Shown: positions 3,117-64,000 of the stretch, in pieces | Layout of the letters: every line of letters starts with the position of its first letter | Numbering within the stretch: the first letter of the stretch is position 1 | Assembly (NCBI GenBank): GCA_964016885.1 | Contig: OZ024744.1 | Coordinates: 117,428,001-117,492,000 of the forward strand | Origin: Eledone cirrhosa | Lineage: Eukaryota | DNA length: 64,000 nucleotides | Direction: 5' to 3' | Notes under the pieces: model-generated | Seen by the model: only the letters and a program-made list of their open reading frames with translations | Database searches by the model: none | Told to the model about the DNA's origin: nothing | Made by a program: the position numbers and the translations under genes

Positions 3117-3353
3117 GGTTTCTTTATTTGCCACTAGGGCACAAAAGGTAGGGACAGATACAAGGGGGGAAGTTTACATATAATTAACGAGTACAAAAAT
3201 ATAACAATGAAATAACAACAACAAACGAAGTCCTCAATAGGGAGGGGGCATTAACATGGGTCGCACACACCCCGGAAAAAATGTGTAACCCTTCTCCTCA
3301 GGAGCACAAAGAGTAGGTGCTTCCCTCGTCTCCGCTTTTTCCTCTTCTTTCAC

Positions 3354-6791: not shown

Positions 6792-6812
6792 GTTGGTTAA
6801 AAGAGGAAGGAC

Positions 6813-8555: not shown

Positions 8556-8766
8556 TTCTATTAGTTTGCCGTAATAAATTTTTAACTGGAAAATTCGCCC
8601 CAAAAAGGGGCGAAAATAAATAAACTCAAAGTTTGACGACCAAGGCAAGGGGTTAACGTATATTACAGTATAAAAAAATTAATCAAAACTCACTTTTTGA
8701 GTAAGTAAATCCGACTCGGTAGCCGAGCTTGTTCACACACGTCAACACACGTCTCTCGTATACGAG

Positions 8767-12462: not shown

Positions 12463-12699
12463 GGTTTCTTTATTTGCCACTAGGGCACAAAAGGTAGGGA
12501 CAGATACAAGGGGGGAAGTTTACATATAATTAACGAGTACAAAAGTATAACAATGAAATAACAACAACAAACGAAGTCCTCAATAGGGAGGGGGCATTAA
12601 CATGTGTCGCACACACCCCGGAAAAAATGTGTAACCCTTCTCCTCAGGAGCACAAAGAGTAGGTGCTTCCCTCGTCTCCTCTTTTTCCTCTTCTTTCAC

Positions 12700-15600: not shown

Positions 15601-16137
15601 TCGATATCTATCGGCCAGGTCAAATCGGCCGATTAACCTTTTGAGGCTTTTACACCCCCCTCTATTGGCACATGCCCCTACATAGTCCCAACGTGCATCC
15701 AGGATACCATTCCAGTCCCCCACTAAAAGCAAGGAGCGGGACGTTCCCAGAAAAGTTTCCAGACGTTGGAAGTATTCCGGCCGCGCTGCCCAAAAAGGGG
15801 CGTACACAGCTATTAGTCTAAGGGCTCCACTTTCACTACTGCCGACGTCTAAAACCACCAGTCGACCCTCCGGGTCCAGGTGCACCTTCTGTATGGCGAG
15901 GCCCAGGTGTTTTCGCAGCAGAACGACAACTCCACCCCCACCCCCCGGTTGACAGAGAGATGCGAAGATCTCAAAGTCGTCGAAGAGGGGCGCCAGTTGG
16001 TGCTCGCTGCTGATCCTGGACTCGCAAATAGCCATTACATCCATTCTATGCGACCTGAGATCGTTTAAAAGTTTGCCTTGTTTCCAAGACAGTCCCAGGC
16101 CACGTACATTCAGACACCCAACTCTTATATCAGCCAT
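12700..16137 (-). pseudogene. Tx1 ORF2 (APE-RT-zf), ~1145 codons, one premature stop at 13447
   Basis: 896-aa ORF continues in frame after a TGA where copies 1 and 2 read W. Confidence 0.92.
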
Positions 16138-16158
16138 GTTGGTTAAAAGAGTAAGGAC

Positions 16159-17889: not shown

Positions 17890-18100
17890 TTCTATTAGTT
17901 TGCCGTAATAAATTTTTAACTGGAAAATTCGCCCCAAAAAGGGGCGAAAATAAATAAACTCAAAGTTTGACGACCAAGGCAAGGGGTTAACGTATATTAC
18001 AGTATAAAAAAATTAATCAAAACTCACTTTTTGAGTAAGTAAATCCGACTCGGTAGCCGAGCTTGTTCACACACGTCAACACACGTCTCTCGTATACGAG

Positions 18101-21100: not shown

Positions 21101-21130
21101 CTGGGAAAATACAATAGTATATACAGAGTA
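18101..21130. repeat. 60/72-bp satellite, block 4 (~3 kb)
   Basis: Same unit; the ~1000-aa ORFs here are repeat translations. Confidence 0.96.
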
Positions 21131-22108
21131 AACTTTTCTTCAAGCCTCCCTAGCTTCGATAGACAGCTGCAGATCTAAACATACCAGATACCTGACAATC
21201 TACTTTTGCAGATTGTACCACTAATTGATGCACTACATTTGGGCAGTGAGAACAAAATGTTTTATGTAAAGATGGTGTGGATCTAATCACTACAGGCTGT
21301 CACCACCAGGCACAATTCTCGCAGATTTTAATCTATTTTGTGTGTTTTTTACGCTGTGTCACAACACCAATTGCGATCGTTGGTCACGTTGTAAGAATGT
21401 TGGATCATTGACTGTTGAAGATGCTAATATACAGAGAATTTCAAGAAACAACGTGTCCGACAGGGACCCTAAGATGATGACACAAGAATCGATATAAAAA
21501 AAATTCCCTTTCAGAAACTTTAATATTGATGCACCAGATCATCCCCTCAAAAAGGAAAAACACCACGCTTGACGCGATTTCTTTGAAATTTACTCAAAGA
21601 CTGTTAGACCCAACTAAGTTCAGATTCAGATAGCTGAACTGAATGATATCTAACTCTCAAAACCGAAGTATATCAATCATCACCAAGCATATTACATCAT
21701 TTTTGGTATCTCTTGCAATAACACGGTATTAGATAAACCAGATATATATATGTGTTACGATACTTGTTGAACCACTTGAGATTCAAAATAGTATGGGATA
21801 ATGTTATAAGTTCACATGAAGATATGTCACTATCTTAAAATATATAGAAATATATATTTTTGTAAATAAGACAATAAAACCATGTGGAAATGGAAGCACC
21901 AATTGAAACACAAGTTTTAAATCTCCGAAGCCGTTTATGAAAGTATTGAAGAAGACAAGAAAACACACTTCGATCTTCCGACGTGGAAGAGGCTCCTATC
22001 AGAAGAAACCGTCACCGAATCATCATTTTTCTTACCTGTTGTACAAACCTGGCTGGACACAGAACACTGCACAAACATTCTAATAGTTCTATAGAGTTAT
22101 GAAATAAT

Positions 22109-46684: not shown

Positions 46685-47310
46685 GTGTTAGACTAGGATG
46701 TGTGTTTTGTTCTTGAACAAAACACTTCATTTCACATTACTCCAGTATACTACAGTGGAGGTATGTAGTGGCCTAGTGGTAAGGGTGTTAGACTAGGATG
46801 TGTGTTTTGTTCTTGAACAAAACACTTCATTTCACATTACTCCAGTATACTACAGTGGAGGTATGTAGTGGCCTAGTGGTAAGGGTGTTAGACTAGGATG
46901 TGTGTTTTGTTCTTGAACAAAACACTTCATTTCACATTACTCCAGTATACTACAGTGGAGGTATGTAGTGGCCTAGTGGTAAGGGTGTTAGACTAGGATG
47001 TGTGTTTTGTTCTTGAACAAAACACTTCATTTCACATTACTCCAGTATACTAGTGGAGGTATGTAGTGGCCTAGTGGTAAGGGTGTTAGACTAGGATGTG
47101 TGTTTTGTTCTTGAACAAAACACTTCATTTCACATTACTCCAGTATACTACAGTGGAGGTATGTAGTGGCCTAGTGGTAAGGGTGTTAGACTGGGTTGTG
47201 TGTTTTGTTCTTGAACAAAACACTTCATTTCACATTACTCCAGTATACTACAGTGGAGGTATGTGGTTGCCTAGAGGTAAGGGTGTTAGACTGGGTTGTG
47301 TGTTGTGTTC
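46685..47310 (+). repeat. 100-bp tandem array derived from a tRNA-SINE head (A box kept, B box lost)
   Basis: GACTAGGATG at 46691, 46791, 46891 and 46991; the unit has GTGGCCTAGTGGTAAGG and CTTGAACAAAACACTTCATTTCACATT, homologous to SINE 27516. Confidence 0.85.
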
Positions 47311-48009
47311 GTAAAATGTAAGTTTCCTTGTTGGATTGCTTATTGACATAGACGTGAGGGAAGGTCCCTCTTCTATTTACCATCTTTGTATTTACAATAT
47401 TCCTTTCGTCATATCATCAATTCCAGCAGCATGGTGTATAAATGTTATTGAGACACGAGTAACATAATAATGACTTCAACAGCAGACATTAGAGATGAAA
47501 TGTATGTTTATTTTGTTGTAGCACAAATAATTGTTTCTACTTTAGGCACAAGGCCAGCAATAACCCAGTGCATTACTGCTACTTTATTTTATCGACCCCG
47601 TAAGGATGAAAGGCAAAGTCAACCTCGGCGGGATTTGAACTTAGATCGTAAAGGGACGTAACTATGCTGCAAAGCATGGCGTCCGACCCTCTACCGATAC
47701 TGCCAATCCACAGCATAATGTTGGTCAACTTGCATAGCTGAAGTTACACATAAAAATGAGGTTACAAAAGGGAATGTGCAATTGTGCCGGAAAGCCGGCA
47801 GGCTAAGGTGCAAAATCTCACCGTCACATGTTGTACGTGTTGCTGGTTCGAAGTTCCTGGTGCGAGAGAGTTATTCTTCAAATCTTTTCGGGTAATTTCT
47901 CCCTCAGGGCGCATAGGGATACATCCTCTTCTACTGGCACTGATTGGCTGAGCTGAGCCAAATCACGCACAGAGAATGTATATGAGCCCGCGGAATGTAG
48001 GTCACTACA
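47311..48009 (-). repeat. 3' LTR of the minus-strand element (contains a SINE insertion)
   Basis: Starts TGTAGTGACC right after the PPT, has AGCCAATCAG (CCAAT-like), and ends in sequence shared with 57339-57419. Confidence 0.68.
47530..47710 (-). mobile_element. tRNA-derived SINE inserted in the LTR
   Basis: Near-identical to 34398-34582. Confidence 0.85.
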
Positions 48010-48856
48010 ATACCCCTCTTCTAGACGGAAGTCGATACGGATTATTGAATCAGCAAGAACAAATGCTGAAAGAGCACATCAGTTTAAAAAAAATAATTGA
48101 GCAGAAGGCTGCATGCAAGAAAAAAAATGAGGCACTACGGGCCGTGTTGAGCCGCTGTGTCAAATGACTAGCTGTTTTGTAGTTTATGCCTGACCACCAA
48201 AGGTCTAACAAAAACGGATAAAGTCTGACATGGGCGAAGTTGCTGTTCTTGCATTAAATGTTAATGGTAAGTGTTGTACCAGTAGCTGTGGACGAAGCTA
48301 TTATGGTAGTTTACCAGTGCTGGCAAGAAGATGATGGGTAGGCGAGAAAATGTTGGCCTCCCAGATGTATTGCCGAATGTGCTAGGGAGCCAGGAAAAAA
48401 TGGCTGGTTGCTTTGAAAAGAAAAAAAAAGCAAGATTAATCTGGAGGTGGGTTGCAGTGTATATTCCATAATTCGGGCGAATCCACAGAAGTGGTGGAAA
48501 GGGATCTCGCAGAATATTACGTTTGAAGAACATGTACCAAGAACAACACGTTGGTGTGTGACAAAGAAGTGTGTGCATATGCAAGCATGCAAAACAGCAA
48601 AGAATGTGAATGAACAAAAACCATGAGCAAGCAAATAGCAAAAGAGCACAAAACAGGTAAATGCATTCTACAAAGAAATATGTGAATGTAACAAACTGAT
48701 AATTCAAAGTGAATATAAGGGAGCAGAGAAATTAATGATCAATGATAAGTTCAAAGTTTTTCAAAGTCAAATAGTTCACACATCACCAGTGTACAGACTT
48801 TCTGACACTAGTTCTATCTGAAAACTGAAAAAGAAGTTTGTTAATGCCACTCGGGG

Positions 48857-48925
48857 TTAGATGTATATTGTTTTTGAGAGTTTTCGTGGCCATACTACTG
48901 TCCTGCCACCTCGTGTGACAAAAGG
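48857..48925 (-). pseudogene. Gypsy Pol/integrase extreme C-terminal remnant (repeated in each unit)
   Basis: PFVTRGGRTVVWPRKLSKTIYI* aligns with TTTCSGRTVHWPRKLCSNIN* at 62210-62272, the end of the + strand Gypsy pol. Confidence 0.72.
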
Positions 48926-49085
48926 TTGTGTTGCTTGTTGTTAAAGCAAAGTCAATGAATCTTCTGTAGAGTCGCAGTCGAGCGTTGAAGAACCCAGAGT
49001 CACCAATATGGCAGCCACGTCTGACGACATAATAGTGAGAAAGCTAATGTCTTAATTTCTCGAGTCCTTGTGGTAACGAGACAGA

Positions 49086-49820
49086 ATGTCTGATTTAACC
49101 AGTTCTACCATATGGGCTGTGACAGCTGCAGGTCGCGGGAAAATAAAATTCAGTTTTTTGAGCAAGACTACCAAGGAATTCGATATTTTAAGTGACACTT
49201 CCTTCCAACCCCAGAAAAGAACCATATTCTCAGGAGGGGATATAAATGCTTCATATACTTTTATAAATACCAAATCCAATACCCAAGAGATATTACCCAA
49301 GCATCTTCTTCACCTCATGGTTAGGTACTGCCAGAAATATTTGGTGTTTGACATCAACGATGATTTGCGAAAGTATGATTTTCTTAACCAGAAGAGTTCT
49401 GTAAGTCCAGCCGATTTTTTTACGATCAATGAGGACTCCAGCTTCCCGACTCCGACAGCAGCCGATTCCACACCCAATCAACACCACGGCTTACCTCTGT
49501 ACATCGTAACATTGTATAAAGTAGAGAACGCAGGCATGAGCCTAGAAGTAGGAGAATATAAGCAGAGTATAGTCAAAAGTTTCAATAATGACAGGATGAC
49601 CCATCCATATCGACACACACATGACATGCTCACAAACGGATCATTAAGCCACATTGTTAAAAATGATCAGATTTTTCAGATCATGGCCGCAATGGACTAC
49701 TTTCTGTTCTATTATAAGGAGCACGAGCTGTCTTTACTGAGAGGCACAGTCTTAACGAGATATGAAGGTATGCATATAGTTACCACAGAGAATGTAGGTC
49801 ACTACAATACCCCCTCCTAG
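49086..49820 (+). CDS. Endogenous rhabdovirus-like nucleoprotein (N), N-terminal ~235 aa, copy 1
   Basis: LPLYIVTLYKV...EYKQSI...NDQIFQIMAAMDYFLFYYKEHELSLLRGTVLTRY versus VSV N as recalled, LPLYLLGLYRV...EYRKKL...NDSNYTKIVAAVDMFFHMFKKHECASFRYGTIVSRF; similar distance from the start Met. Confidence 0.82.
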   Translation: MSDLTSSTIWAVTAAGRGKIKFSFLSKTTKEFDILSDTSFQPQKRTIFSGGDINASYTFINTKSNTQEILPKHLLHLMVRYCQKYLVFDINDDLRKYDFLNQKSSVSPADFFTINEDSSFPTPTAADSTPNQHHGLPLYIVTLYKVENAGMSLEVGEYKQSIVKSFNNDRMTHPYRHTHDMLTNGSLSHIVKNDQIFQIMAAMDYFLFYYKEHELSLLRGTVLTRYEGMHIVTTENVGHYNTPS

Positions 49821-50881
49821 ACAGAAGTCGATACGGATTATCGAATCAGCAAGAACAAATGCTGAAAGAGCACATCAGTTTAAAAATAATAATTGAGCAG
49901 AAGGCTGCATGCAAGAAGAAAAATGATGCGCTAAGGGCCGTGTTGAGCGGCTGTGTCAAATGACTAGCTGTTTTGTAGTTTATACGTGACCACCAAAGGT
50001 CTAACAAAAACGGATAAAGTCTGATATGGGCGAAGTTGCTGTTCTTGCATTAAATGTTAATGGTAAGTGTTGTACCAGTAGCTGTGGACGAAGCTATTAT
50101 GGTAGTTTACCAGTGCTGGCAAGAAGATGATGGGTAGGCGAGAAAATGTTGGCCTCCCAGATGTATTGCCGAATGTGCTAGGGAGCCAGGAAAAAATGGC
50201 TGGTTGCTTTGAAAAGAAAAAAAAAGCAAGTTTAATCTGTAGGTGGGTTGCAGTGTAAATTCCATAATTCGGGCAAATCCACAGAAGTGGTGGAAAGGGA
50301 TCTCGCAGAATATTACGTTTGAAGAACATGTACTAAGAACAACACTTTGGTGTGTGACAAAGAAATGTGTGCATATGCAAGTATGCAAAACAGCAAAGAA
50401 TGTGAATGAACAAAAACCATGAGCAAGCAAATAACAAAAGAGCCCAAAACAAGTAAATGCATTCTACAAAGAAATATGTGAATGTAACATACTGATAATT
50501 CAAAGTGAATATAAGGGAGCAGAGAAATTAATGATCAATGATAAGTTCAAAGTTTTTCAAAGTCAAATAGTTCACACATCACCAGTGTACAGACTTTCTG
50601 ACACTAGTTCTATCTGAAAACTGAAAAAGAAGTTTGTTAATGCCACTAGGGGTTAGATGTATATTGTTTTTGAGAGTTTTCGTGGCCATTCTACCGTCCT
50701 GCCACCTCGTGTGACAAAAGGTTGTGTTGCTTGTTGTTAAAGCAAAGTCAATGAATCTTCTGTAGAGTCGCAGTCGAGCGTTGAAGAACCCAGAGTCACC
50801 AATATGGCAGCCACGTCTGACGACATAATAGTGAGAAAGCTAATGTCTTAATTTCTCGAGTCCATGTGGTAACGAGACAGA

Positions 50882-51616
50882 ATGTCTGATTTAACCAGTT
50901 CTACCATATGGGCTGTGACAGCTGCAGGTCGCGGGAAAATAAAATTCAGTTTTTTGAGCAAGACTACCAAGGAATTCGATATTTTAAGTGACACTTCCTT
51001 CCAACCCCAGAAAAGAACCATATTCTCAGGAGGGGATATAAATGCTTCATATACTTTTATAAATACCAAATCCAATACCCAAGAGATATTACCCAAGCAT
51101 CTTCTTCACCTCATGGTTAGGTACTGCCAGAAATATTTGGTGTTTGACATCAACGATGATTTGCGAAAGTATGATTTTCTTAACCAGAAGAGTTCTGTAA
51201 GTCCAGCCGATTTTTTTACGATCAATGAGGACTCCAGCTTCCCGACTCCGACAGCAGCCGATTCCACACCCAATCAACACCACGGCTTACCTCTGTACAT
51301 CGTAACATTGTATAAAGTAGAGAACGCAGGCATGAGCCTAGAAGTAGGAGAATATAAGCAGAGTATAGTCAAAAGTTTCAATAATGACAGGATGACCCAT
51401 CCATATCGACACACACATGACATGCTCACAAACGGATCATTAAGCCACATTGTTAAAAATGATCAGATTTTTCAGATCATGGCCGCAATGGACTACTTTC
51501 TGTTCTATTATAAGGAGCACGAGCTGTCTTTACTGAGAGGCACAGTCTTAACGAGATATGAAGGTATGCATATAGTTACCACAGAGAATGTAGGTCACTA
51601 CAATACCCCCTCCTAG
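50882..51616 (+). CDS. Endogenous rhabdovirus-like nucleoprotein fragment, copy 2
   Basis: Same 244-aa translation as copy 1. Confidence 0.82.
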   Translation: MSDLTSSTIWAVTAAGRGKIKFSFLSKTTKEFDILSDTSFQPQKRTIFSGGDINASYTFINTKSNTQEILPKHLLHLMVRYCQKYLVFDINDDLRKYDFLNQKSSVSPADFFTINEDSSFPTPTAADSTPNQHHGLPLYIVTLYKVENAGMSLEVGEYKQSIVKSFNNDRMTHPYRHTHDMLTNGSLSHIVKNDQIFQIMAAMDYFLFYYKEHELSLLRGTVLTRYEGMHIVTTENVGHYNTPS

Positions 51617-52677
51617 ACAGAAGTCGATACGGATTATCGAATCAGCAAGAACAAATGCTGAAAGAGCACATCAGTTTAAAAATAATAATTGAGCAGAAGG
51701 CTGCATGCAAGAAGAAAAATGATGCGCTAAGGGCCGTGTTGAGCGGCTGTGTCAAATGACTAGCTGTTTTGTAGTTTATACGTGACCACCAAAGGTCTAA
51801 CAAAAACGGATAAAGTCTGATATGGGCGAAGTTGCTGTTCTTGCATTAAATGTTAATGGTAAGTGTTGTACCAGTAGCTGTGGACGAAGCTATTATGGTA
51901 GTTTACCAGTGCTGGCAAGAAGATGATGGGTAGGCGAGAAAATGTTGGCCTCCCAGATGTATTGCCGAATGTGCTAGGGAGCCAGGAAAAAATGGCTGGT
52001 TGCTTTGAAAAGAAAAAAAAAGCAAGTTTAATCTGTAGGTGGGTTGCAGTGTAAATTCCATAATTCGGGCAAATCCACAGAAGTGGTGGAAAGGGATCTC
52101 GCAGAATATTACGTTTGAAGAACATGTACTAAGAACAACACTTTGGTGTGTGACAAAGAAATGTGTGCATATGCAAGTATGCAAAACAGCAAAGAATGTG
52201 AATGAACAAAAACCATGAGCAAGCAAATAACAAAAGAGCCCAAAACAAGTAAATGCATTCTACAAAGAAATATGTGAATGTAACAAACTGATAATTCAAA
52301 GTGAATATAAGGGAGCAGAGAAATTAATGATCAATGATAAGTTCAAAGTTTTTCAAAGTCAAATAGTTCACACATCACCAGTGTACAGACTTTCTGACAC
52401 TAGTTCTATCTGAAAACTGAAAAAGAAGTTTGTTAATGCCACTAGGGGTTAGATGTATATTGTTTTTGAGAGTTTTCGTGGCCATTCTACCGTCCTGCCA
52501 CCTCGTGTGACAAAAGGTTGTGTTGCTTGTTGTTAAAGCAAAGTCAATGAATCTTCTGTAGAGTCGCAGTCGAGCGTTGAAGAACCCAGAGTCACCAATA
52601 TGGCAGCCACGTCTGACGACATAATAGTGAGAAAGCTAATGTCTTAATTTCTCGAGTCCTTGTGGTAACGAGACAGA

Positions 52678-53412
52678 ATGTCTGATTTAACCAGTTCTAC
52701 CATATGGGCTGTGACAGCTGCAGGTCGCGGGAAAATAAAATTCAGTTTTTTGAGCAAGACTACCAAGGAATTCGATATTTTAAGTGACACTTCCTTCCAA
52801 CCCCAGAAAAGAACCATATTCTCAGGAGGGGATATAAATGCTTCATATACTTTTATAAATACCAAATCCAATACCCAAGAGATATTACCCAAGCATCTTC
52901 TTCACCTCATGGTTAGGTACTGCCAGAAATATTTGGTGTTTGACATCAACGATGATTTGCGAAAGTATGATTTTCTTAACCAGAAGAGTTCTGTAAGTCC
53001 AGCCGATTTTTTTACGATCAATGAGGACTCCAGCTTCCCGACTCCGACAGCAGCCGATTCCACACCCAATCAACACCACGGCTTACCTCTGTACATCGTA
53101 ACATTGTATAAAGTAGAGAACGCAGGCATGAGCCTAGAAGTAGGAGAATATAAGCAGAGTATAGTCAAAAGTTTCAATAATGACAGGATGACCCATCCAT
53201 ATCGACACACACATGACATGCTCACAAACGGATCATTAAGCCACATTGTTAAAAATGATCAGATTTTTCAGATCATGGCCGCAATGGACTACTTTCTGTT
53301 CTATTATAAGGAGCACGAGCTGTCTTTACTGAGAGGCACAGTCTTAACGAGATATGAAGGTATGCATATAGTTACCACAGAGAATGTAGGTCACTACAAT
53401 ACCCCCTCCTAG
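52678..53412 (+). CDS. Endogenous rhabdovirus-like nucleoprotein fragment, copy 3
   Basis: Same 244-aa translation as copy 1. Confidence 0.82.
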   Translation: MSDLTSSTIWAVTAAGRGKIKFSFLSKTTKEFDILSDTSFQPQKRTIFSGGDINASYTFINTKSNTQEILPKHLLHLMVRYCQKYLVFDINDDLRKYDFLNQKSSVSPADFFTINEDSSFPTPTAADSTPNQHHGLPLYIVTLYKVENAGMSLEVGEYKQSIVKSFNNDRMTHPYRHTHDMLTNGSLSHIVKNDQIFQIMAAMDYFLFYYKEHELSLLRGTVLTRYEGMHIVTTENVGHYNTPS

Positions 53413-54473
53413 ACAGAAGTCGATACGGATTATCGAATCAGCAAGAACAAATGCTGAAAGAGCACATCAGTTTAAAAATAATAATTGAGCAGAAGGCTGC
53501 ATGCAAGAAGAAAAATGATGCGCTAAGGGCCGTGTTGAGCGGCTGTGTCAAATGACTAGCTGTTTTGTAGTTTATACGTGACCACCAAAGGTCTAACAAA
53601 AACGGATAAAGTCTGATATGGGCGAAGTTGCTGTTCTTGCATTAAATGTTAATGGTAAGTGTTGTACCAGTAGCTGTGGACGAAGCTATTATGGTAGTTT
53701 ACCAGTGCTGGCAAGAAGATGATGGGTAGGCGAGAAAATGTTGGCCTCCCAGATGTATTGCCGAATGTGCTAGGGAGCCAGGAAAAAATGGCTGGTTGCT
53801 TTGAAAAGAAAAAAAAAGCAAGTTTAATCTGTAGGTGGGTTGCAGTGTAAATTCCATAATTCGGGCAAATCCACAGAAGTGGTGGAAAGGGATCTCGCAG
53901 AATATTACGTTTGAAGAACATGTACTAAGAACAACACTTTGGTGTGTGACAAAGAAATGTGTGCATATGCAAGTATGCAAAACAGCAAAGAATGTGAATG
54001 AACAAAAACCATGAGCAAGCAAATAACAAAAGAGCCCAAAACAAGTAAATGCATTCTACAAAGAAATATGTGAATGTAACAAACTGATAATTCAAAGTGA
54101 ATATAAGGGAGCAGAGAAATTAATGATCAATGATAAGTTCAAAGTTTTTCAAAGTCAAATAGTTCACACATCACCAGTGTACAGACTTTCTGACACTAGT
54201 TCTATCTGAAAACTGAAAAAGAAGTTTGTTAATGCCACTAGGGGTTAGATGTATATTGTTTTTGAGAGTTTTCGTGGCCATTCTACCGTCCTGCCACCTC
54301 GTGTGACAAAAGGTTGTGTTGCTTGTTGTTAAAGCAAAGTCAATGAATCTTCTGTAGAGTCGCAGTCGAGCGTTGAAGAACCCAGAGTCACCAATATGGC
54401 AGCCACGTCTGACGACATAATAGTGAGAAAGCTAATGTCTTAATTTCTCGAGTCCTTGTGGTAACGAGACAGA

Positions 54474-55208
54474 ATGTCTGATTTAACCAGTTCTACCATA
54501 TGGGCTGTGACAGCTGCAGGTCGCGGGAAAATAAAATTCAGTTTTTTGAGCAAGACTACCAAGGAATTCGATATTTTAAGTGACACTTCCTTCCAACCCC
54601 AGAAAAGAACCATATTCTCAGGAGGGGATATAAATGCTTCATATACTTTTATAAATACCAAATCCAATACCCAAGAGATATTACCCAAGCATCTTCTTCA
54701 CCTCATGGTTAGGTACTGCCAGAAATATTTGGTGTTTGACATCAACGATGATTTGCGAAAGTATGATTTTCTTAACCAGAAGAGTTCTGTAAGTCCAGCC
54801 GATTTTTTTACGATCAATGAGGACTCCAGCTTCCCGACTCCGACAGCAGCCGATTCCACACCCAATCAACACCACGGCTTACCTCTGTACATCGTAACAT
54901 TGTATAAAGTAGAGAATGCAGGCATGAGCCTAGAAGTAGGAGAATATAAGCAGAGTATAGTCAAAAGTTTCAATAATGACAGGATGACCCATCCATATCG
55001 ACACACACATGACATGCTCACAAACGGATCATTAAGCCACATTGTTAAAAATGATCAGATTTTTCAGATCATGGCCGCAATGGACTACTTTCTGTTCTAT
55101 TATAAGGAGCACGAGCTGTCTTTACTGAGAGGCACAGTCTTAACGAGATATGAAGGTATGCATATAGTTACCACAGAGAATGTAGGTCACTACAATACCC
55201 CCTCCTAG
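54474..55208 (+). CDS. Endogenous rhabdovirus-like nucleoprotein fragment, copy 4
   Basis: Same 244-aa translation as copy 1. Confidence 0.82.
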   Translation: MSDLTSSTIWAVTAAGRGKIKFSFLSKTTKEFDILSDTSFQPQKRTIFSGGDINASYTFINTKSNTQEILPKHLLHLMVRYCQKYLVFDINDDLRKYDFLNQKSSVSPADFFTINEDSSFPTPTAADSTPNQHHGLPLYIVTLYKVENAGMSLEVGEYKQSIVKSFNNDRMTHPYRHTHDMLTNGSLSHIVKNDQIFQIMAAMDYFLFYYKEHELSLLRGTVLTRYEGMHIVTTENVGHYNTPS

Positions 55209-56269
55209 ACAGAAGTCGATACGGATTATCGAATCAGCAAGAACAAATGCTGAAAGAGCACATCAGTTTAAAAATAATAATTGAGCAGAAGGCTGCATGC
55301 AAGAAGAAAAATGATGCGCTAAGGGCCGTGTTGAGCGGCTGTGTCAAATGACTAGCTGTTTTGTAGTTTATACGTGACCACCAAAGGTCTAACAAAAACG
55401 GATAAAGTCTGATATGGGCGAAGTTGCTGTTCTTGCATTAAATGTTAATGGTAAGTGTTGTACCAGTAGCTGTGGACGAAGCTATTATGGTAGTTTACCA
55501 GTGCTGGCAAGAAGATGATGGGTAGGCGAGAAAATGTTGGCCTCCCAGATGTATTGCCGAATGTGCTAGGGAGCCAGGAAAAAATGGCTGGTTGCTTTGA
55601 AAAGAAAAAAAAAGCAAGTTTAATCTGTAGGTGGGTTGCAGTGTAAATTCCATAATTCGGGCAAATCCACAGAAGTGGTGGAAAGGGATCTCGCAGAATA
55701 TTACGTTTGAAGAACATGTACTAAGAACAACACTTTGGTGTGTGACAAAGAAATGTGTGCATATGCAAGTATGCAAAACAGCAAAGAATGTGAATGAACA
55801 AAAACCATGAGCAAGCAAATAACAAAAGAGCCCAAAACAAGTAAATGCATTCTACAAAGAAATATGTGAATGTAACAAACTGATAATTCAAAGTGAATAT
55901 AAGGGAGCAGAGAAATTAATGATCAATGATAAGTTCAAAGTTTTTCAAAGTCAAATAGTTCACACATCACCAGTGTACAGACTTTCTGACACTAGTTCTA
56001 TCTGAAAACTGAAAAAGAAGTTTGTTAATGCCACTAGGGGTTAGATGTATATTGTTTTTGAGAGTTTTCGTGGCCATTCTACTGTCCTGCCACCTCGTGT
56101 GACAAAAGGTTGTGTTGCTTGTTGTTAAAGCAAAGTCAATGAATCTTCTGTAGAGTCGCAGTCGAGCGTTGAAGAACCCAGAGTCACCAATATGGCAGCC
56201 ACGTCTGACGACATAATAGTGAGAAAGCTAATGTCTTAATTTCTCGAGACCTTGTGGTAACGAGACAGA

Positions 56270-57055
56270 ATGTCTGATTTAACCAGTTCTACCATATGGG
56301 CTGTGACAGCTGCAGGTCGCGAGAAAATAGAATTCCGTTTGAGCAAGACTACCAAGGAATTCGATATTTTAAGTGACACTTCCTTCCAACCCCAGAAAAT
56401 AACCATATTCTCAGGAGGGGATATAAATGCTTCATATACTTTTATAAATACCAAATCCAATACCCAAGAGATATTACCCAAGCATCGTCTTCACCTCATG
56501 GTTAGGTACTGCCAGAAATATTTGGTGTTTGACATCAACGATGATTTGCGAAAGTATGATTTTCTTAACCAGAAGAGTTCTGTAAGTCCAGCCGATTTCT
56601 TCACGATCAATGAAGACACCAGCTTCCCGACTCCGACAGCAGCTGATTCCACACCCAATCAACACCACGGCTTACCTCTGTACATCGTAACATTGTATAA
56701 AGTAGAGAACGCAGGCATGAGCCTAGAAGTAGGAGAATATAAGCAGAGTATAGTCAAAAGTTTCAATAATGACAGGATGACCCATCCATATCGACACACA
56801 CATGACATGCTCACAAACGGATCATTAAGCCACATTGTTAAAAATGATCAGATTTTTCAGATCATGGCCGCAATGGATTATTTTTTATTCCATTATAAGG
56901 AGCACGAGCTGTCTTTACTGAGGAGAGGCACAGTCTTAACGCGATATGAAGGTATGCATATAGTTACCAGTGTGGTTTTGGGGTTTTTTTTTTTTGGTTT
57001 TTTTATAACGGTAGAGACGATAGAAGAGGTGAAGGCGTGGAAGTCAACAATATGA
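56270..57055 (+). CDS. Endogenous rhabdovirus-like nucleoprotein fragment, divergent copy 5
   Basis: Keeps the full RxGT spacing (LLRRGTVLTRY) and FLFHYKEHE; C-terminal extension differs from copies 1-4. Confidence 0.82.
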   Translation: MSDLTSSTIWAVTAAGREKIEFRLSKTTKEFDILSDTSFQPQKITIFSGGDINASYTFINTKSNTQEILPKHRLHLMVRYCQKYLVFDINDDLRKYDFLNQKSSVSPADFFTINEDTSFPTPTAADSTPNQHHGLPLYIVTLYKVENAGMSLEVGEYKQSIVKSFNNDRMTHPYRHTHDMLTNGSLSHIVKNDQIFQIMAAMDYFLFHYKEHELSLLRRGTVLTRYEGMHIVTSVVLGFFFFGFFITVETIEEVKAWKSTI

Positions 57056-57325
57056 TGTGTGGTGGTTGCGTCGGTAAGGCTATGAAGCTGCCATCTCACT
57101 ATTCCCTGTTGTTGGTTAGTGGTTAAACAATGTTGTCGCTGCTGCTGCTGCTGCTGCTGCCGTTGTTGTTGTTGTTGATTGTAGACAGGACCTGTCGCTA
57201 GCCATTTTGTAATTTCCTCGTGGCGAAAAGTTTTTGAAATACTGCTAATTTTTTTTTAAATTTTAAAAGGAATATTTTGTATTTTCGTAAATTGCACTGA
57301 ACAAAAAGGCTGCGTAAAATTCTTA

Positions 57326-57337
57326 CGTCGGTCACCA
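57326..57337 (-). promoter_or_regulatory. Primer-binding site of the minus-strand LTR element
   Basis: TGGTGACCGACG begins 1 nt after the LTR-terminal CA. Confidence 0.7.
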
Positions 57338-57338
57338 G

Positions 57339-57419
57339 TGTGGTAAAATGTATGTATGTATCATAATTGGATTGCTTATTGACATAGACGTGAGGGAAGG
57401 TCCCTCGTCTATTTACTAT
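57339..57419 (-). repeat. Remnant of the 5' LTR (U5 end), cut off by the + strand Gypsy
   Basis: Homologous to 47311-47383; abuts the TG of the next element's LTR. Confidence 0.68.
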
Positions 57420-58245
57420 TGTAGTGGCTGAGATGGTCGCTTGGCAACTAGCAGTTGCCTCCCCTTAACAACCCTTCAGAGAGCGGAGGTAAAAATACAT
57501 CCGGACACAGACGCAGGTTCACTCACTCTCTTTGGACCGCAGACATGAACAGACGTGGAAAGATTCGCTCCTCAAAATATTGACGTTGTAGGAAATTTAC
57601 TAAATTATCGCATTTAATAAAATGATTATTAGATTTGATTGTTCATTTATTTATTCAACAAAGAGAAACATCCCTTTCCTTTATCAACCCTGACGATAAA
57701 GAATGAAAACGTAGCCTATTTGAATTCGCCATTCGTTTTAACGGCAATGTGGAATGGCTTAACATTTGGAATGTTCGAATCACTTAGCGTAAGTCCATAA
57801 AATTCATAATATTCCATTTGTTGAAGCACGCATACAGACAAACACAAAAATACAACACAAAAAAAAATAATTAAAAAAAAAAAAAGGATTTCTCTGGATA
57901 TAGAATTTTGCTTTCAACATTATGTGGAAATTACAAATGGAGACTCAGATATTTTGTTTTCCCGCGTTCAGCTTGTCTTCTCCAACCCAGCCATCTGATT
58001 GGCTGCATCGTGCCACATGACGGCTTCTTCATCACGGACACATTTTTAAATCAGCCATCTTGGATTTTCTTACCATTAATTTTCATAGAAAATGATTTTT
58101 TTTATTATTAAAATTTTCTTTAGAATATTTTTTTTAAAGAAAAAAAATTAGTATTTCAAAACGGCTACCACCAATTACCAGCAATCAGCAGCAACACAAG
58201 GCTAACTATTGACCAACACCAAAAAGTCATCAAATACGTGGCACC

Positions 58246-59037
58246 ATGAGTCAACATCATTTGCCGTCCTTCGCAGGCGACATCAAGTTGTGGTTTGCGC
58301 AGCTGGAATGTTTCTTCGAATTGACGAAGACAAAGGAACAGCATAAGCTGAAGGTCCTGATCAATGGCCTACCTGTTTCCTTGGCATTCTCGGTGAAGGA
58401 CGTTTTGACGGATTTAGACGCCGACGTTACCTACGGCTCATTAAAGAACGAAATTCTTCGCAGAAATACCAAGTCGGTAGAGAGCCGTTTTCAGGAGTTG
58501 TTGGAGGATGCTCAAATGGGTGACAGGAAGCCGAGCTCCTATTTGCGACATTTGCGGGAGTTGAGCGACTCCCAGGGGATTGACACCCCCTTCATAAAGC
58601 AGCTTTTTTTTTTCACGTCTACCACCAAGTGCGCAAAGGATATTGGTCAATAGTTTAGAGAAGGATTCATTAGAGCAACTTGCCGCGTCCGCGGATAAGA
58701 TACTTGAGGTGGACTCGAACAGCAGTCAGCATAATCCTTATGTGGCTTCAGCTTCCCCCCCCCCCCCCCACGCAGTTCTTCTGTGGCCGACAGCAAACTG
58801 TTGGAGTTGATTGAAGCTCTCACCAAAAAGGTAGAAGATTTGACGGTACATCACAGAGAGCCTTCTCAACGTTTGAGGTACCGTTCGCCGCCGTCCTCTA
58901 TTCATCGCCAGTACTACAACGCAGACAACAATAATTCTTCGTTGTGTTGGTACCATGCTAACTTCGGCAATAGGGCACAACGTTGTCGCACGCCCTGTAA
59001 TTACAAGAAATCGGGAAACGCAAAGCAGAGCCACTAG
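58246..59037 (+). pseudogene. Gypsy gag, frameshifted at homopolymer runs
   Basis: LWFAQLE, MGDRKPSSYLRHLREL, CWYHANFGNRAQRCRTPC. Confidence 0.85.
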
Positions 59038-59079
59038 GGGCGGCTAGTGAACTCTGGGAAAACCGACCGAACCACCATC

Positions 59080-62000
59080 TTTTCGTATACGACCTGCGGT
59101 CAAAAAAATGTTTCCTTGTCGATACTGGCGCGTCGCTGAGTATTTGGCTAGTCAGTTATCTCAAAAAAAGCCCAGCTGAATCAAATATAAATCTACGAGC
59201 AGTCAACCACACGGCCATTCGAACGTACGGGCAAATTTCGCTTCCTCTTCGGTTAAAAAATTTGCAGCGTGATTTGAGGTGGAAGTTTACTATCGCCGAC
59301 TTGCCATACGCCATTTCGGGAGCGGATTTTCTCCACCATTTTTCCTTGTTGGTGGACATTCGCAGACAACGCTTTTTGATGCTAAAACAGGCCTTTCTTT
59401 CGAGGATTCAGAGCCGGATGTCGCCACTGTCAGCCCTTCCTTTTTCTTGGCTGAAGTGGGCAACCAGTATCAAAGCCTGCTACATTCATTCCCTCAGTTG
59501 ACGCAGGGAAAGTTACGAATAACTAGCCCGGATCATGCGATTGAACACTTCATATCCACTACAGGTCCACCTGTTTTCTCACGTCCTCGAAGATTATCTA
59601 CAGAGAAGTTGAAAGCTGCACGTCTTGAATTCGACCACATGCTGGAATTGGGAATAATTCGGCGCTCCACAAGTCCTTGGGCATCGCCTCTACATATGGT
59701 ACCTAGATCTTCTGGGGATTGGAGACCGACGGGTGACTACCGACGCTTAAACGCGATTACTGTGCCTGACCGTTATCCAATCCCGCATTTGCAGGATTTT
59801 GCATCGTCATTGCAGGGTTGCAGAATCTTTTCTAAGCTTGATTTGATCCGCGCTTATAATCAAATTCCGGTTAACAAGGAGGATATCCCAAAGAGTGCTA
59901 TTGCCACTCCTTTCGGATCATTCGAGTTCCTCACTATGCCTTTCGGCCTTAGAAATGCTGCAAGTACCTTCCAACGATTTATGGATGATGTTACTCGGGG
60001 CCTGGATTTTGTGTACACGTATATCGATGACGTGTTGATTGCTAGTTCTTCCCCTCAGCAGCATTCAAAGCATCTGGATCTCGTATTTCGTCGTTTACAG
60101 AGATATAATTGTTTCTACTTTTAGCACAAGGCCAGCAATTATTCTAGTGTATTACTGGTACTTTATTTTATCGACCCGTTAAGGATGAAAGGCAAAGTTA
60201 ACCTCGGCGGGTCTTGAACTCAGTCCGTAAACAGAGATATAATGTTCGTATTAATGCTTCCAAGTGTGTTTTCGGCTCGACTTCACTAACATTTTTAGGC
60301 CATCTGATTGACGCTGATGGTATTCGACCTCTTCCTGAGAAGGTTAAGGCAGTATCGGGTTTGCCTCCGCCAAGTTCACTGCGACAATTGCGTCAATTCC
60401 TGGGCCTTGTACATTTTTATAGGCGATTCGTACCTGGTTGTTCCAAATTGCTGTTCTCGTTGACAGAGATTTTTAAGGGTTGCCGGCGTAAGAATATGGA
60501 CATTTCCTTAAATAAAACGCAGCTTGATGATTTTAAAAAAGTGAAAAAGGCGTTAGCGAACGCGTCTTTGCTCGCCCACCCAGTACCCAACGCCGAGCTA
60601 TCGCTCTGTGTTGATGCTTCGGATAGCGCCGTGGGCGCAGTCTTACAGCAGAAGTGTGATGGGGTACAGCAACCACTCGAGTTCTTTTCGAGGAAGTTAA
60701 AGCCTGCCGAAACTCGCTATAGCACCTTTGGAAGGGAGCTATTAGCAATTTATTTATCAGTGAAACATTTTGCTCATGTACTTGAAGGTAGAACATTCAC
60801 CATTTTCACTGATCATAAACCTTTGACGTTTGCTCTTCGAACTAAAGCAGTCAAATACTCGCCCAGAGAAACGAGACATCTGGACTTCATCTCACAGTTC
60901 ACGAACGACATTCAACATATTCCGGGTTCTTTGAATACAGCGGCCGATGCGCTGTCTCGCCTGCCGATCGCATCGATTTCGTCTTCCGAGGAGATAGATT
61001 TACATCGAATGGCAGCTGCCCAACCCACTCTCGAATCGTTGGATGTTACATCGCCAGAGTTTGTACATTGCAAACTGAAATACATTCCGATCTCAACTGC
61101 TGACGGACAAATACTGTGTGAGGTTTCGTTGGACTCACCACGACCTCTAGTCCCAGTGGAACATCGACGAACTGCGTTTCTCGCTTTACATGGCATTTCT
61201 CACCCAGGAGTATCAGCCTCAGTAAAACTCATAACAGCCAGATTTTTCTGGCCTGGTATGAGACGTGACATTGCTGCTTGGTGTCGTTCCTGTGTCGCTT
61301 GCCAACAAGCGAAAGTTCATAGACATGTTAAGGCTCCTCTCGGAACCTTCACCTGCCCCGATGCAAGATTTCGTCACATTCATGTGGACATCGTCGGCCC
61401 GTGGCCGGTTAGTCGTGGTTTTTCGTATCTTTTGACGATTGTTGACCGTTTTTCGCGTTGGCCTGAAGCCGTCCCTATAACAGATATCACCGCCGAAACC
61501 ACAGCCCGTACCCTCGTATCTTCGTGGATCGCTCGTTTCGGTGTACCAACCACCATAACAACGGATCGTGGTCGTCAATTTGAGTCTAACCTCTTCCGAG
61601 AGCTAACCCAAATCCTGGGGGCTACTCGAATAAGAACCACGGCTTACCACCCAGCCTCAAACGGAATGGTGGAAAGATTCCACAGGCAGCTCAAAGCCTC
61701 CGTAAGGGCTTCCATGGACTCTTCACGTTGGAGTTGTATTGTTGGGTATTCGGTCGACGGTAAAGGTGGACCTTGGGTTCTCCTCTGCCGAATTAGTTTA
61801 TGGTACGCCTCTGGCGTTACTGGGGCAAATGCTGGCCCCTTTTGACCTGACTTCGCAGGACCCCGCTTCCTACGTGTCCCGGCTTCACTCTTATTTCAAG
61901 GATCTACCACCGATGGGCACTAGGAAGCAGACTAAAAACTGCCGTCCCAAGGGATATTGCCTTGTGGACCCATGTGTTCGTTAGAGACGACGCCGTGAGA

Positions 62001-62272
62001 CCCCCTCTTCAACGGCCGTACTCTGGACCCTATCGTGTGCTTGCTCGCACAGACAAACATTTCACACTGGACATTCGGGGTTCCAGGGAAACGGTTTCCA
62101 TTGATCGTCTCAAACGAGCAAACCTGGACAATGACACTTGAAACTCAAATGCCCCCCTCTTTTTCTTTGCCACACAGGCCTATTCCCCCCCCCCCCATTA
62201 ACACACAGAACTACGACCTGTTCTGGGCGAACGGTGCATTGGCCCCGTAAGCTATGCAGTAATATAAACTGA
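59080..62272 (+). pseudogene. Gypsy pol (protease, RT, RNase H, integrase), with frameshifts and a SINE insertion
   Basis: FLVDTGA; [26 protein letters not shown]; DASD, RELLAI, TDHKPL; HPG...[28 protein letters not shown]. Confidence 0.92.
60110..60230 (-). mobile_element. 5'-truncated SINE inserted in Gypsy RT with 13-bp TSD
   Basis: ACAGAGATATAAT at 60097-60109 and 60231-60243. Confidence 0.88.
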
Positions 62273-62987
62273 ATTATTATTTTTTTTTTTTGTTTTGTTT
62301 TTTTCCTTCCAATTGTTTTTGTTGTACATTGCATTTTGTTACTTTTGGATTCTTGACTGCCTACGGCAGTGTCAATATATTGTATTTTGCGTAACATTAC
62401 GACTGTTGTCAATTCTGACACAGACCTTTTTTTTTAGTGCATTTTTATAACTATGCTACATATGGCATTTTCATTGCCTAGCAAAACATTTTTTTTCTTG
62501 TTTATCGCATCTGGGGCCCCTTTATTGCGAAGAGTGTTATCTTTTCATGCATTTTGCATCTTTTACTGTACGTTTTTTTTTTTTTTTTTTCTGTGTTAAT
62601 GCTTGCAGACATGAACCTATTTATTATTTCTTTTTAATTTGTTGATACATTCTTCTACATTTTGTAAACTACCTTCGCTTCATTGTTAACGATTTTTCGA
62701 CAAAAAATCTGCTCCGAGGTGAATGTAGTGGCTGAGATGGTCGCTTGGCAACTAGCAGTTGCCTCCCCTTAACAACCCTTCAGGGAGCGGAGGCAAAAAT
62801 ACACCCGGACACAGCCACAGGTTCACTCACTCTTTTTGGACCACGGACATGAACAGACGTGGAAAGATCCGCTCCTCAAAATATTGACGTTGTAGGAAAT
62901 TTACTAAATTATTGCATTAAATAAAATGATTGTTAGACTTGATTGTGCATTTATTTATTCGACAAAGAGAAACATCCCTTTTCTTTA

Positions 62988-63353
62988 GAGGTATGTGGTG
63001 GCCTAGTGGTAACGATGTTAGACTGGGTTGTGTGTTGTGTTCTTGAACAAGACACTTCATTTCACATTACTACAGTATACTACTGTAGAGGTATATTGTG
63101 GCCTAGTGGTAAGGGTGTTAGACTGGGTTGTGTGTTGTGTTCTTGAACAAAACACTTCATTTCACATTACTACAGTATACTACATGGAGGTATGTGGGAC
63201 CTAATGGTAAGGGTGTTAGACTGGGTTGTGTGTTGTGTTCTTGAACTAAACACCTCATTTCACATTACTCCAGTATACTACAGTGGAGGTATGTGGTGGC
63301 CTAGTGGTAAGGGTGTTAGACTGAGTTGTGTGTTGTGTTCTTGAACAAAACAC
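62988..63353 (+). repeat. SINE-head-derived ~100-bp tandem array (same family as 46685-47310)
   Basis: Same unit and orientation. Confidence 0.85.
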
Positions 63354-64000
63354 TAGAGAGGGTGGTTAAGGAACCTGGCAAGGATGGGGCCATGATCAAC
63401 TTGGATCAATCCAAAGCATTCGATAGGGTCGACCATCGGTACCTGGCGGCGGTCCTCGGGGCAGCCGGTTTCGAGCCCGTTTTCAGGGGTTGGCTCGCAG
63501 CAATGTACAGCGACATCTGCTCAGTTGTGTGGGTGAACGGTCACCTGTCGCAGCCGTTCAGCATCATGCGCTCAGTCCGCCAGGGTTGTCCCCTCTCGTC
63601 CCTCTTGTACGTATTGGCTCTCGAGCCGTTACTGCACAAACTGGGGGCGATGAGGGGCGTCCCACGCGAACTAGGATGCGGGAAATCCGAGTCGGCTTAC
63701 GCCGACGACGTCACCGTAGTGGTGTCGAGCACCAGGCACGTCCAGATGCTCGGCACCGCTCTCAAGGAATACGAAGCGGTGACAGGAGCAAAGATAAACC
63801 AGGAAAAGTCGGTGGGCTTGCAGCTCGGCACCTGGAGAGGCAAGTCCATGCCGTCCGACAGCGTCGTGGGGTGTTGGACGGACGGACCGGTTAAATTGCT
63901 TGGGGTCTGGTTCGGAGAAAAACTGGAACGAGGTGACGAGCAGGGTGGCCTCCCTCACCCAGAAATGGGCTGAGAGGAAGCTGTCCCTGAAAGGCCGGAC
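63354..64000 (+). mobile_element. Tx1-clade LINE, 5'-truncated RT fragment of a second subfamily, runs off the window
   Basis: INLDQSKAFDRVDHRYL, RQGCPLS, AYADD; similar to but clearly diverged from copies 1-3. Confidence 0.88.

What the first reader, a model, noticed from the sequence alone, without database searches (positions are those of the whole stretch)
47311..57419. The viral gene sits between the LTRs of a Gypsy element, replacing gag-pol, antisense to the LTR
Seen, reading the minus strand: LTR end (...CA at 57339), PBS TGGTGACCGACG, a leader resembling the neighbouring Gypsy leader (AAAAAAATTAG...TATTTCAAAA), antisense N, the Pol C-terminus TRGGRTVxWPRKL, a 3' UTR, PPT AGAAGAGGGG, then an LTR starting TGTAGTG whose far end matches the other LTR at 51/53 nt. 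PBS, PPT and LTR ends are retained while gag-pol is gone. Established: LTR reverse transcriptases can recombine with non-retroviral RNA (IAP-LCMV hybrids in mouse, Ty3/Gypsy-associated NIRVS in Aedes). Inference: a preserved capture product, possibly once mobilisable in trans. Element-sense transcription would give RNA antisense to viral N mRNA, the polarity expected for antiviral piRNAs.
Basis: partly seen in the sequence, partly recalled or inferred. Interest (0 to 1): 0.9.

Follow-up and report, generated by a model that had tools for sequence, protein, structure and literature searches.

The report
Virus gene captured by octopod retrotransposons
Five tandem copies of half a rhabdovirus-like nucleoprotein gene sit backwards inside a small jumping element that has no genes of its own, and similar element-virus hybrids stand at seven other places in this probably octopod genome, so these elements likely copied viral RNA into the germline again and again; whether this protects the animal is untested.

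Summary
The motifs are real (tRNA-Trp PBS, Pol-end remnant, PPT, LTR ends matching 51/53), but the reading needs three corrections. (1) The viral piece (N codons 1 to about 232, antisense) did not replace gag-pol. The host is a high-copy, 2.3-2.9 kb non-autonomous LTR family, and 699 nt stand in place of 41 nt of its leader. (2) There are five 1,796-nt tandem units. (3) Only 81 nt of the 5' LTR remain and there is no TSD. The genome search is the stronger result: 8 of 11 N loci are joined to LTRs of four Gypsy-type families, from about nine captures of diverged viruses. One chimera stands at two sites with different 4-bp TSDs. Five captures are antisense; four of them start with a cut 5' LTR. 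Best reading: template switching onto viral mRNA during reverse transcription, then local amplification. Differences between sister copies are synonymous-rich in 2 of 3 pairs, hinting at re-copying from virus variants. No RNA data were available, so the piRNA role is untested. The mechanism is known (IAP-LCMV, Aedes); this anatomy and host were not found in my searches, nor in earlier scan notes.

The parts
57339..57419 (-). 3' end (81 nt) of the 5' LTR of the non-autonomous family (famA, long LTR form); the rest is lost at the junction with the neighbouring Gypsy element
57326..57337 (-). Primer-binding site of tRNA-Trp type, with a 2-nt deletion relative to family copy L079
   Evidence: host tRNA-Trp(CCA) genes carry the complement
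56970..57325 (-). famA leader; leader plus LTR end is 94% identical to virus-free L067; a 96-98 nt piece is 93-96% identical to the leader of autonomous famC
56270..56966 (+). Rhabdovirus-like N fragment of unit 1, from the viral AUG to about codon 232; antisense to the element; open frame of 261 codons running on into the leader (stop at 57055)
56041..56100 (-). Pol C-terminal remnant (TRGGRTVEWPRKL..stop), homologous to the pol ends of famB and of autonomous famC; repeated in each unit
55174..56969 (-). Unit 1: antisense N, inner region with a ~205-nt deletion, PPT (55206-55198), 21-nt LTR stub (55194-55174)
53378..55173 (-). Unit 2 (N frame 54474-55208 on +, 244 codons, open)
51582..53377 (-). 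Unit 3 (N frame 52678-53412 on +, open)
49786..51581 (-). Unit 4 (N frame 50882-51616 on +, open)
48010..49785 (-). Unit 5 (N frame 49086-49820 on +, open); its element part is 2.4% diverged from that of units 1-4; PPT 48022-48013
47311..48009 (-). 3' LTR (about 510 nt plus SINE), starts TGTAGTG, lacks its last 4 nt, abuts a 100-bp satellite
47526..47714 (-). SINE inside the 3' LTR; also present in LTRs of several virus-free family copies
57420..62987 (+). Neighbouring, decayed Gypsy element of another family (famB: gag, protease, RT, RNase H, integrase, LTRs 248/264 identical) that cuts off the 5' LTR; no shared TSD
46685..47310 (.). 100-bp satellite flanking the compound locus (same family at 62988-63354)

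Best explanation
Five tandem copies of the first 232 codons of a rhabdovirus-like N gene lie antisense inside a non-autonomous, Gypsy-derived LTR element, likely put there when a helper element's reverse transcriptase switched from the element's template to co-packaged viral RNA and back, and likely multiplied afterwards by tandem duplication in the chromosome. Shown: the parent family lacks gag-pol, 699 nt replace 41 nt of its leader, and 8 of 11 N loci in the genome are joined to LTRs. Inferred steps: (1) co-packaging in particles of an autonomous family, probably famC, which shares the PBS and leader and is fused with famA in one chimera; (2) the switch happened during plus-strand synthesis onto viral mRNA, which gives antisense polarity (about 55%; minus-strand copying of genomic RNA is the alternative); (3) integration as an LTR element; (4) a first duplication joined at a TG microhomology between the LTR start and the left N junction, 2.3-2.4% divergence of the two units, then a recent expansion of the middle segment to five units; (5) loss of most of the 5' LTR at the neighbouring element, which most likely left this copy inert. 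An antiviral small-RNA role is possible but untested.
For: Parent without gag-pol: 16 of 20 fetched copies have two LTR starts 1,760-2,373 nt apart; the neighbour's gag/protease/RT/RNaseH-integrase found no match in 70 loci with the famA pol-end motif except the neighbour itself. Empty site in 2 copies (L067, L158): 41 nt between the two anchors; the empty site has TTGTAACT where the chimera has TGGTAACT. Recurrence: 11 N loci; 8 joined to LTRs of four families, 1 to a famA 3' piece, 2 to nothing in my four-family library; chance adjacency P about 6e-9 even if these families covered 5% of the genome. Independent viral templates: 59-73% nucleotide identity with saturated synonymous sites between most loci; 43 of 55 and 58 of 79 differences synonymous among the closest ones in different LTR families. 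Integration as a unit: 4-bp TSDs around L105, L099, L103, L104. mRNA hallmarks: L104 and L102 begin at a gene-start-like AAC(T/A)CGGATT, L102 ends at an A-run, L103 and L106 join an element T-run to a gene-end A-run, and the antisense copies in the window, L100 and the L-gene locus end at or within about 40 nt of the start codon. Helper: famC copies with a 1,066-codon pol frame in 2 of 6 fetched, PBS region 93-97% and leader piece 93-96% identical; L106 has a famA LTR start and a famC 3' LTR. Array history: units 2-4 differ at 0-3 sites; N differs at 16/696 between unit 1 and units 3-5, element part at 26/1093 between units 1-3 and unit 5. The tandem junction is in contigs of 2 of 4 laid runs.
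Against: This copy has no TSD and no intact 5' LTR, and a 41-nt replacement also fits repair of a DNA break with viral cDNA. The microhomologies at its own junctions are short (about 4 nt and 1 nt) and the exact viral template is unknown. The two LTR ends differ over their last ~25 nt more than the 2.4% clock would give, so the ends may come from different copies. L106 spans N, the intergenic bases and P, which fits genomic RNA or a rare read-through mRNA; T-run/A-run joints fit either strand. The L099 TSD lies in a TA-rich run. The 20 family copies were picked by likeness to the window's 3' region, which favours short copies. The synonymous, clustered differences between units 1 and 2 are not explained by plain neutral duplication. 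The X1 run may be the assembled animal, and X1 and X4 are one study.
Confidence: 0.78

Rival explanations
1. Viral cDNA made by another reverse transcriptase (a LINE or Penelope) was patched into a DNA break inside an already integrated famA copy; the LTR setting is incidental.
For: No TSD or complete 5' LTR here; only 41 nt replaced; L102 looks like a whole-mRNA retrocopy without LTRs, and L107 and L177 have no LTR neighbour in my library; LINEs are abundant in the window.
Against: 8 of 11 N loci are joined to LTRs; the same two junctions occur at two chromosomes with different TSDs (L099, L105); L106 repeats about 45 nt of famC on both sides of the insert while 28 of 28 virus-free copies printed have it once.
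Confidence: 0.12
2. The array is kept because the host translates the N-terminal half of N (for example as a dominant-negative decoy), so purifying selection acts on the sense frame.
For: All five frames start at the viral AUG and are open; both indels between unit 1 and the rest are 3 nt; 10 of 16 substitutions are synonymous against 4.9 expected (P 0.006). Predicted N-like proteins exist in Octopus bimaculoides and Argonauta hians.
Against: Four of the six amino-acid changes are radical (E/G, E/K, I/R, R/L); synonymous changes come in patches (5 within 15 nt, P 0.002), which selection alone would not give; no promoter is shown; several sister loci are broken.
Confidence: 0.08
3. The chimera or its five-fold repeat is an assembly artefact or contamination.
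For: Units 2-4 are almost identical, the setting is satellite-rich, and short-read contigs collapse the units, so the number five is not independently checked.
Against: The locus lies on a 136-Mb contig; contigs of two runs hold the unit-to-unit junction and the unit 2-5 alleles; the units have a coherent two-ancestor pattern.
Confidence: 0.02

Closest known systems
LTR-mediated retroposition of mRNAs (Tan et al. 2016, PMC5131818; passages read)
   Same: Foreign RNA copy between parts of an LTR element, short microsimilarity at the joints, partial copies, and some chimeras at more than one insertion site acting as non-autonomous elements.
   Different: The cargo is viral; the carriers are mostly already non-autonomous; 5 of 7 polarity-scored captures are antisense and 4 begin with a cut 5' LTR. 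The passages I read describe replacement of internal ORFs with both LTRs kept.
Ty3/gypsy-associated EVEs and vDNA of Aedes (Whitfield 2017, 10.1101/127498; Palatini 2017, PMC5497376; Tassetto 2019, PMC6797480; passages read)
   Same: Rhabdovirus N pieces dominate, are enriched next to Ty3/gypsy, are thought to come from viral mRNA by template switching, and are duplicated after integration.
   Different: In Aedes the enrichment is strongest for EVE and element in the same orientation, antisense piRNAs come from cluster transcription, and recombination was judged homology-independent. Here the host is a probable octopod, most captures are antisense to the element, whole chimeras with TSDs are preserved, and no small-RNA data exist.
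IAP-LCMV recombinants in mouse (Geuking 2009, known to me through the review PMC3205384; passages read)
   Same: An LTR retrotransposon supplies reverse transcription and integration for a negative-strand RNA virus.
   Different: Seen in infected cells and mice, with no endogenous LCMV element found according to that review; here the products are in the assembled genome and recur across four LTR families.
Non-autonomous LTR elements (TRIM/LARD type; labels recalled)
   Same: LTRs, PBS and PPT without coding capacity, 4-bp TSDs, shared cis sequences with an autonomous family.
   Different: At 2.3-2.9 kb with 400-510 nt LTRs it falls between the two recalled size classes, and this copy carries viral cargo in a tandem array.

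Membership tests
Non-autonomous Gypsy-derived LTR element (famA) | Two LTRs of one family | tested here: met
   3' LTR 93% identical to L067; 81-nt 5' remnant matches the family LTR end; the 5' LTR is truncated
Non-autonomous Gypsy-derived LTR element (famA) | tRNA primer-binding site and polypurine tract | tested here: met
   PBS complementary to host tRNA-Trp apart from a 2-nt deletion; PPT before each LTR start
Non-autonomous Gypsy-derived LTR element (famA) | No gag-pol in virus-free members | tested here: met
Non-autonomous Gypsy-derived LTR element (famA) | Target-site duplication around this copy | tested here: not met
   Both outer ends are lost; 8 of 14 scorable virus-free copies have an exact 4-bp TSD (read)
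Non-autonomous Gypsy-derived LTR element (famA) | An autonomous partner sharing cis signals | tested here: inconclusive
   famC shares PBS and leader pieces and is fused with famA in L106, but the LTRs match only 78% over about 95 nt
Non-retroviral endogenous viral element, Rhabdoviridae-like N | Homology to rhabdovirus nucleoprotein | tested here: met
   PF00945 above cut-off; the L101 copy matches nucleocapsid structures at E 8e-11; named virus relatives at 24-25% identity
Non-retroviral endogenous viral element, Rhabdoviridae-like N | Integrated in host DNA | tested here: met
   Chromosome-scale contig, host repeats on both sides, junction in contigs of 2 runs
Non-retroviral endogenous viral element, Rhabdoviridae-like N | Placement within Rhabdoviridae by polymerase phylogeny | not tested
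   L-gene pieces exist but no tree with reference viruses was built
LTR template-switch chimera (Tan 2016 type) | Microsimilarity at both joints | tested here: inconclusive
   About 4 nt (AACT) and 1 nt here, with the true template unknown; T-run/A-run and GCCAGGC-type overlaps at sister loci
LTR template-switch chimera (Tan 2016 type) | Further rounds of mobilisation | tested here: inconclusive
   Not seen for this chimera (the N DNA matches only this locus among 40 scored of 505 candidates); met for L099/L105 (different TSDs) and suggested for L101/L106 (different flanks)
piRNA-producing antiviral EVE | Antisense 24-31 nt RNAs with 1U bias and an effect on the virus | not testable with these tools
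   No RNA run listed; PIWI genes and piRNAs are reported as widespread in molluscs (PMC6128900, passages)

The most novel reading that the evidence does not exclude
Octopod LTR elements act as a running recorder of one rhabdovirus lineage: non-autonomous copies catch viral mRNA during plus-strand synthesis, so the record is written antisense; the chimeras are re-mobilised in trans, even without a PBS, and pick up fresh patches from later virus variants by homologous switching. This would explain the synonymous, clustered differences between copies that share identical junctions, and would give the animal a self-updating, heritable library of antisense viral RNA.
Probability: 0.2. Interest if true: 0.88.

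Novelty: new variant of a known kind. Interest (0 to 1): 0.62.

Why it matters
How RNA-virus sequence gets into germlines is usually inferred from proximity to transposon fragments. This genome keeps the products whole: about nine captures with readable joints, four LTR families, TSDs, both polarities and one chimera at two sites. That makes the strand, the template and the re-mobilisation of LTR-mediated capture directly testable. It also records a rhabdovirus-like lineage whose closest named database relatives are predicted proteins of other octopods. If antisense small RNAs come from these loci, EVE-based immunity would extend from mosquitoes to cephalopods.

Tried and rejected
Gag-pol replacement: rejected for this locus. 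Neighbouring Gypsy as the parent: rejected; its LTR is another family and only short leader and pol-end motifs are shared. TSD around the compound locus: none. Dispersed copies of this exact chimera: none among the 40 scored of 505 candidates. An idea that the TGGT at the left N junction is a PBS copy: not needed, since the empty leader has TTGTAACT there; not excluded. Word-indexed protein search for longer relatives: 0 hits of 737 candidates. Expression: no RNA holder listed, which is no evidence either way. RAD-seq run X6 has only 2 reads from one start inside N, and run X5 only 21-24 nt matches; neither was used as evidence. Whether the L105 insertion is polymorphic stays open. ARAGORN found no tRNA in 4 of 4 first loci; a fifth region held 4 tRNA-Trp genes. 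ADAR hyper-editing as the cause of the unit 1/unit 2 differences: changes run in both directions, so not favoured. Control against my re-copying idea: pair L101/L106 shows no synonymous excess (6 of 18, P 0.40) yet is also clustered at the 15-nt window (P 0.018), three window sizes were tried, and the unit 1/2 clustering fades at 40 nt (P 0.09). Literature searches for a prior description: searches gave none for cephalopods or this anatomy; PMC12548735 has no mention of octopus. Subscription papers and all supplements were not seen; EVE tables in supplements could list these loci. Earlier scan notes: nothing by sequence or words; the 8 notes shown by place concern other elements.
Full report
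What is at the locus. On the minus strand the sequence reads: 81 nt of LTR end (57419-57339), PBS, a 356-nt leader, then five units of 1,796 nt, then a 699-nt LTR ending against a 100-bp satellite. Each unit holds an antisense fragment of a rhabdovirus-like nucleoprotein (PF00945, E 2e-10 and 3e-8), a Pol C-terminal remnant, a 3' region, a PPT and, in units 1-4, a 21-nt stub of the LTR start. The PBS is of tRNA-Trp type: a family copy has the full form, and host tRNA-Trp genes carry its complement.

The parent element. The LTR and 3' region match a high-copy family, here famA (2,619 first-look candidates, 40 scored). I fetched 20 copies with 10 kb each. In 16 of 20 the two LTR starts are 1,760-2,373 nt apart; L070 has a pair by self-alignment and the other three are cut. 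The neighbour's gag, protease, RT and RNaseH-integrase found nothing in 70 loci holding the famA pol-end motif except the neighbour itself. Two virus-free copies have the window's leader variant. In both, 41 nt lie between the anchors that flank 699 nt in the window. So N did not replace gag-pol: it replaced a short piece of leader in an element that had no genes. The right joint falls on the A of the viral AUG; comparison with other copies shows this is the natural start codon. The left joint is at about codon 232, where the empty site reads TTGTAACT and the chimera TGGTAACT. These copies were chosen by likeness to the window, so the sample is biased to short members, but these are the relevant parents.

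The array. Units 2-4 differ at 0-3 sites. N differs at 16 of 696 sites between unit 1 and units 3-5 (17 against unit 2), while the element part differs at 26 of 1,093 between units 1-3 and unit 5, with derived changes about evenly split. The simplest history is a first duplication joined at a shared TG, 2.3-2.4% divergence, then a recent expansion of the middle segment (inference). Contigs of 2 of 4 laid runs contain the unit-to-unit joint; they are one study and cannot confirm the number five. The 5' LTR is cut by a decayed Gypsy element of another family (famB, 57420-62987) with no shared TSD, so this copy has probably lost its own promoter.

The same thing elsewhere in the genome. Protein and profile searches gave 11 N loci including this one (lower bounds). 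In element sense: L099 and L105, on different chromosomes, have the first 132 nt of the famA LTR, antisense N, the last ~120 nt of the 3' region, PPT and LTR, with the same two joints and different 4-bp TSDs (TATA in a TA-rich run; GAAC). L103 has the first 181 nt of a famB LTR whose T-run meets the A-run at the end of N, antisense N, 3' region and LTR, TSD CGCT. L104 is a famB element with both LTRs, PBS, gag and protease, in which sense N, starting at a gene-start-like motif, replaces RT, RNase H and integrase, TSD AGGC. L106 has a cut famA LTR, the pol end of a third family (famC), antisense P-like and N sequence entered at a T-run, a repeat of about 45 nt of famC, and a famC LTR; L101 is a shorter copy with other flanks. 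L100 has a cut LTR of a fourth family (920 candidates) and antisense N reaching about 40 nt upstream of the AUG. L102 is a whole N transcript, sense, behind a famA 3' piece without LTR. L107 and L177 have no neighbour from these four families. That is 8 of 11 loci joined to LTRs; with 5% genome coverage assumed the chance is about 6e-9 (loci from one event counted separately). Of 4 L-gene loci, 1 is joined antisense to a famB element and ends near the start of L. My note called the famA TSDs 5 bp; one search shows 4 bp.

Independent captures. Most N copies are 59-73% identical with saturated synonymous sites; the closest copies in different LTR families differ mostly at synonymous sites (43 of 55; 58 of 79). 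That divergence arose in the virus, so there were about nine captures. The nearest named database relatives of the L101 copy are predicted proteins of Octopus bimaculoides and Argonauta hians (42-53% identity), beside two unnamed assembly proteins, then tick, thrips and tibrovirus nucleoproteins at 24-25%. The host is therefore probably an octopod (inference).

Mechanism. LTR reverse transcriptases switch templates onto co-packaged RNA (PMC5131818, PMC6797480, PMC3205384; passages read). Sense copies that begin at the transcript start (L104, L102) point to mRNA as template. For antisense copies, a plus strand that leaves the element, copies mRNA towards its 5' end and returns explains the cut 5' LTRs in four events, the T-run/A-run entries and the exits near start codons. 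Minus-strand copying of genomic RNA explains the polarity too, and fits the N-P span of L106. I put plus-strand/mRNA at about 55%. A helper exists: 2 of 6 fetched famC copies have a 1,066-codon pol frame, and famC shares the PBS region and a leader piece with the window.

An open oddity. Copies that share identical joints should differ neutrally. Units 1 and 2 differ at 10 synonymous of 16 sites (4.9 expected, P 0.006), and L099/L105 at 17 of 31 (8.3 expected, P 0.0006), while L101/L106 is neutral (6 of 18, P 0.40). The changes cluster in N (P 0.002 and 0.01 at 15 nt) but not in the element part (P 0.60); the neutral pair also clusters at 15 nt (P 0.018), so clustering alone is weak. Either inserts were re-copied in patches from virus variants, or selection kept the sense frames, all five of which are open. 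I favour the first; neither is shown.

Function. No RNA run was listed, so expression is untested. Molluscs have PIWI genes and somatic piRNAs (PMC6128900, passages). In Aedes, rhabdovirus N EVEs are enriched beside Ty3/gypsy elements of the same orientation (10.1101/127498; PMC5497376). Here 5 of 7 scorable captures are antisense, too few to call a bias.

Verdict. A real element-virus chimera, misread in one central point and much richer in its genomic context. The mechanism class is known. The cephalopod host, non-autonomous carriers, cut-LTR antisense anatomy with TSDs and re-mobilisation were not found in six literature searches (open-access full text only, no supplements seen). New variant of a known kind; interest 0.62.

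Noticed in passing
L104 (G000:C2:336016800-336026799), 3871-7494: famB element with both LTRs, PBS, gag and protease in which a sense N copy replaces RT, RNase H and integrase; 4-bp TSD.
   Followed up: yes
L099 3989-6373 and L105 3934-5757: One PBS-less famA-N chimera at two chromosomes with different TSDs; LTR halves of L105 are 132/132 identical while the two N inserts differ at 31 sites.
   Followed up: yes
L106 4083-7701 and L101 3760-5955: Three-part chimera (famA LTR start, famC pol end and 3' LTR, antisense N-intergenic-P-like region with frameshifts); L101 is a shorter copy flanked by a 102-nt direct repeat.
   Followed up: partly
L153 7998 to L154 about 2900 (G000:C3 near 130.16 Mb): Long, stop-interrupted Mononegavirales L-gene insert, antisense behind a famB pol, ending in a short fold-back palindrome near the start of L. 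Three shorter L pieces at C23, C3 37.5 Mb and C27; the C27 one is a scrambled mosaic of short pieces.
   Followed up: partly
L102 4000-5500: Whole N transcript from a gene-start-like motif to an A-run, fused behind 182 nt of the famA 3' region, no LTR.
   Followed up: partly
L062, L067, L068, L076, L078, L079: Several famA copies carry the same SINE at the same place in one LTR but not in the other, or duplicated in tandem; suggests frequent recombination between LTR variants.
   Followed up: no
L228 (G000:C1:133585243, inside famA copy L070): The PBS complement runs on into the tRNA-Trp T-loop (21-nt match), i.e. more of the primer tRNA was copied than usual; 67 genome matches to this pattern include true tRNA genes.
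   Followed up: partly
window 57420-62987: The neighbouring famB element has lost most of its PBS, carries a SINE in RT and a famA-like piece in its leader.
   Followed up: partly
window 46685-47310 and 62988-63354: The same 100-bp satellite flanks the whole compound of two LTR elements, in different phase at the two junctions.
   Followed up: no
window 2700-21150: Repeated near-identical non-LTR elements (zinc-knuckle ORF1, endonuclease-RT ORF2) alternating with arrays of a 72/60-bp satellite.
   Followed up: no
L177 about 4915-5229 (G000:C1:314565714): A more distant, stop-interrupted N-like piece that did not match the L101 protein in tblastn at E 1e-4; possibly another virus lineage.
   Followed up: partly
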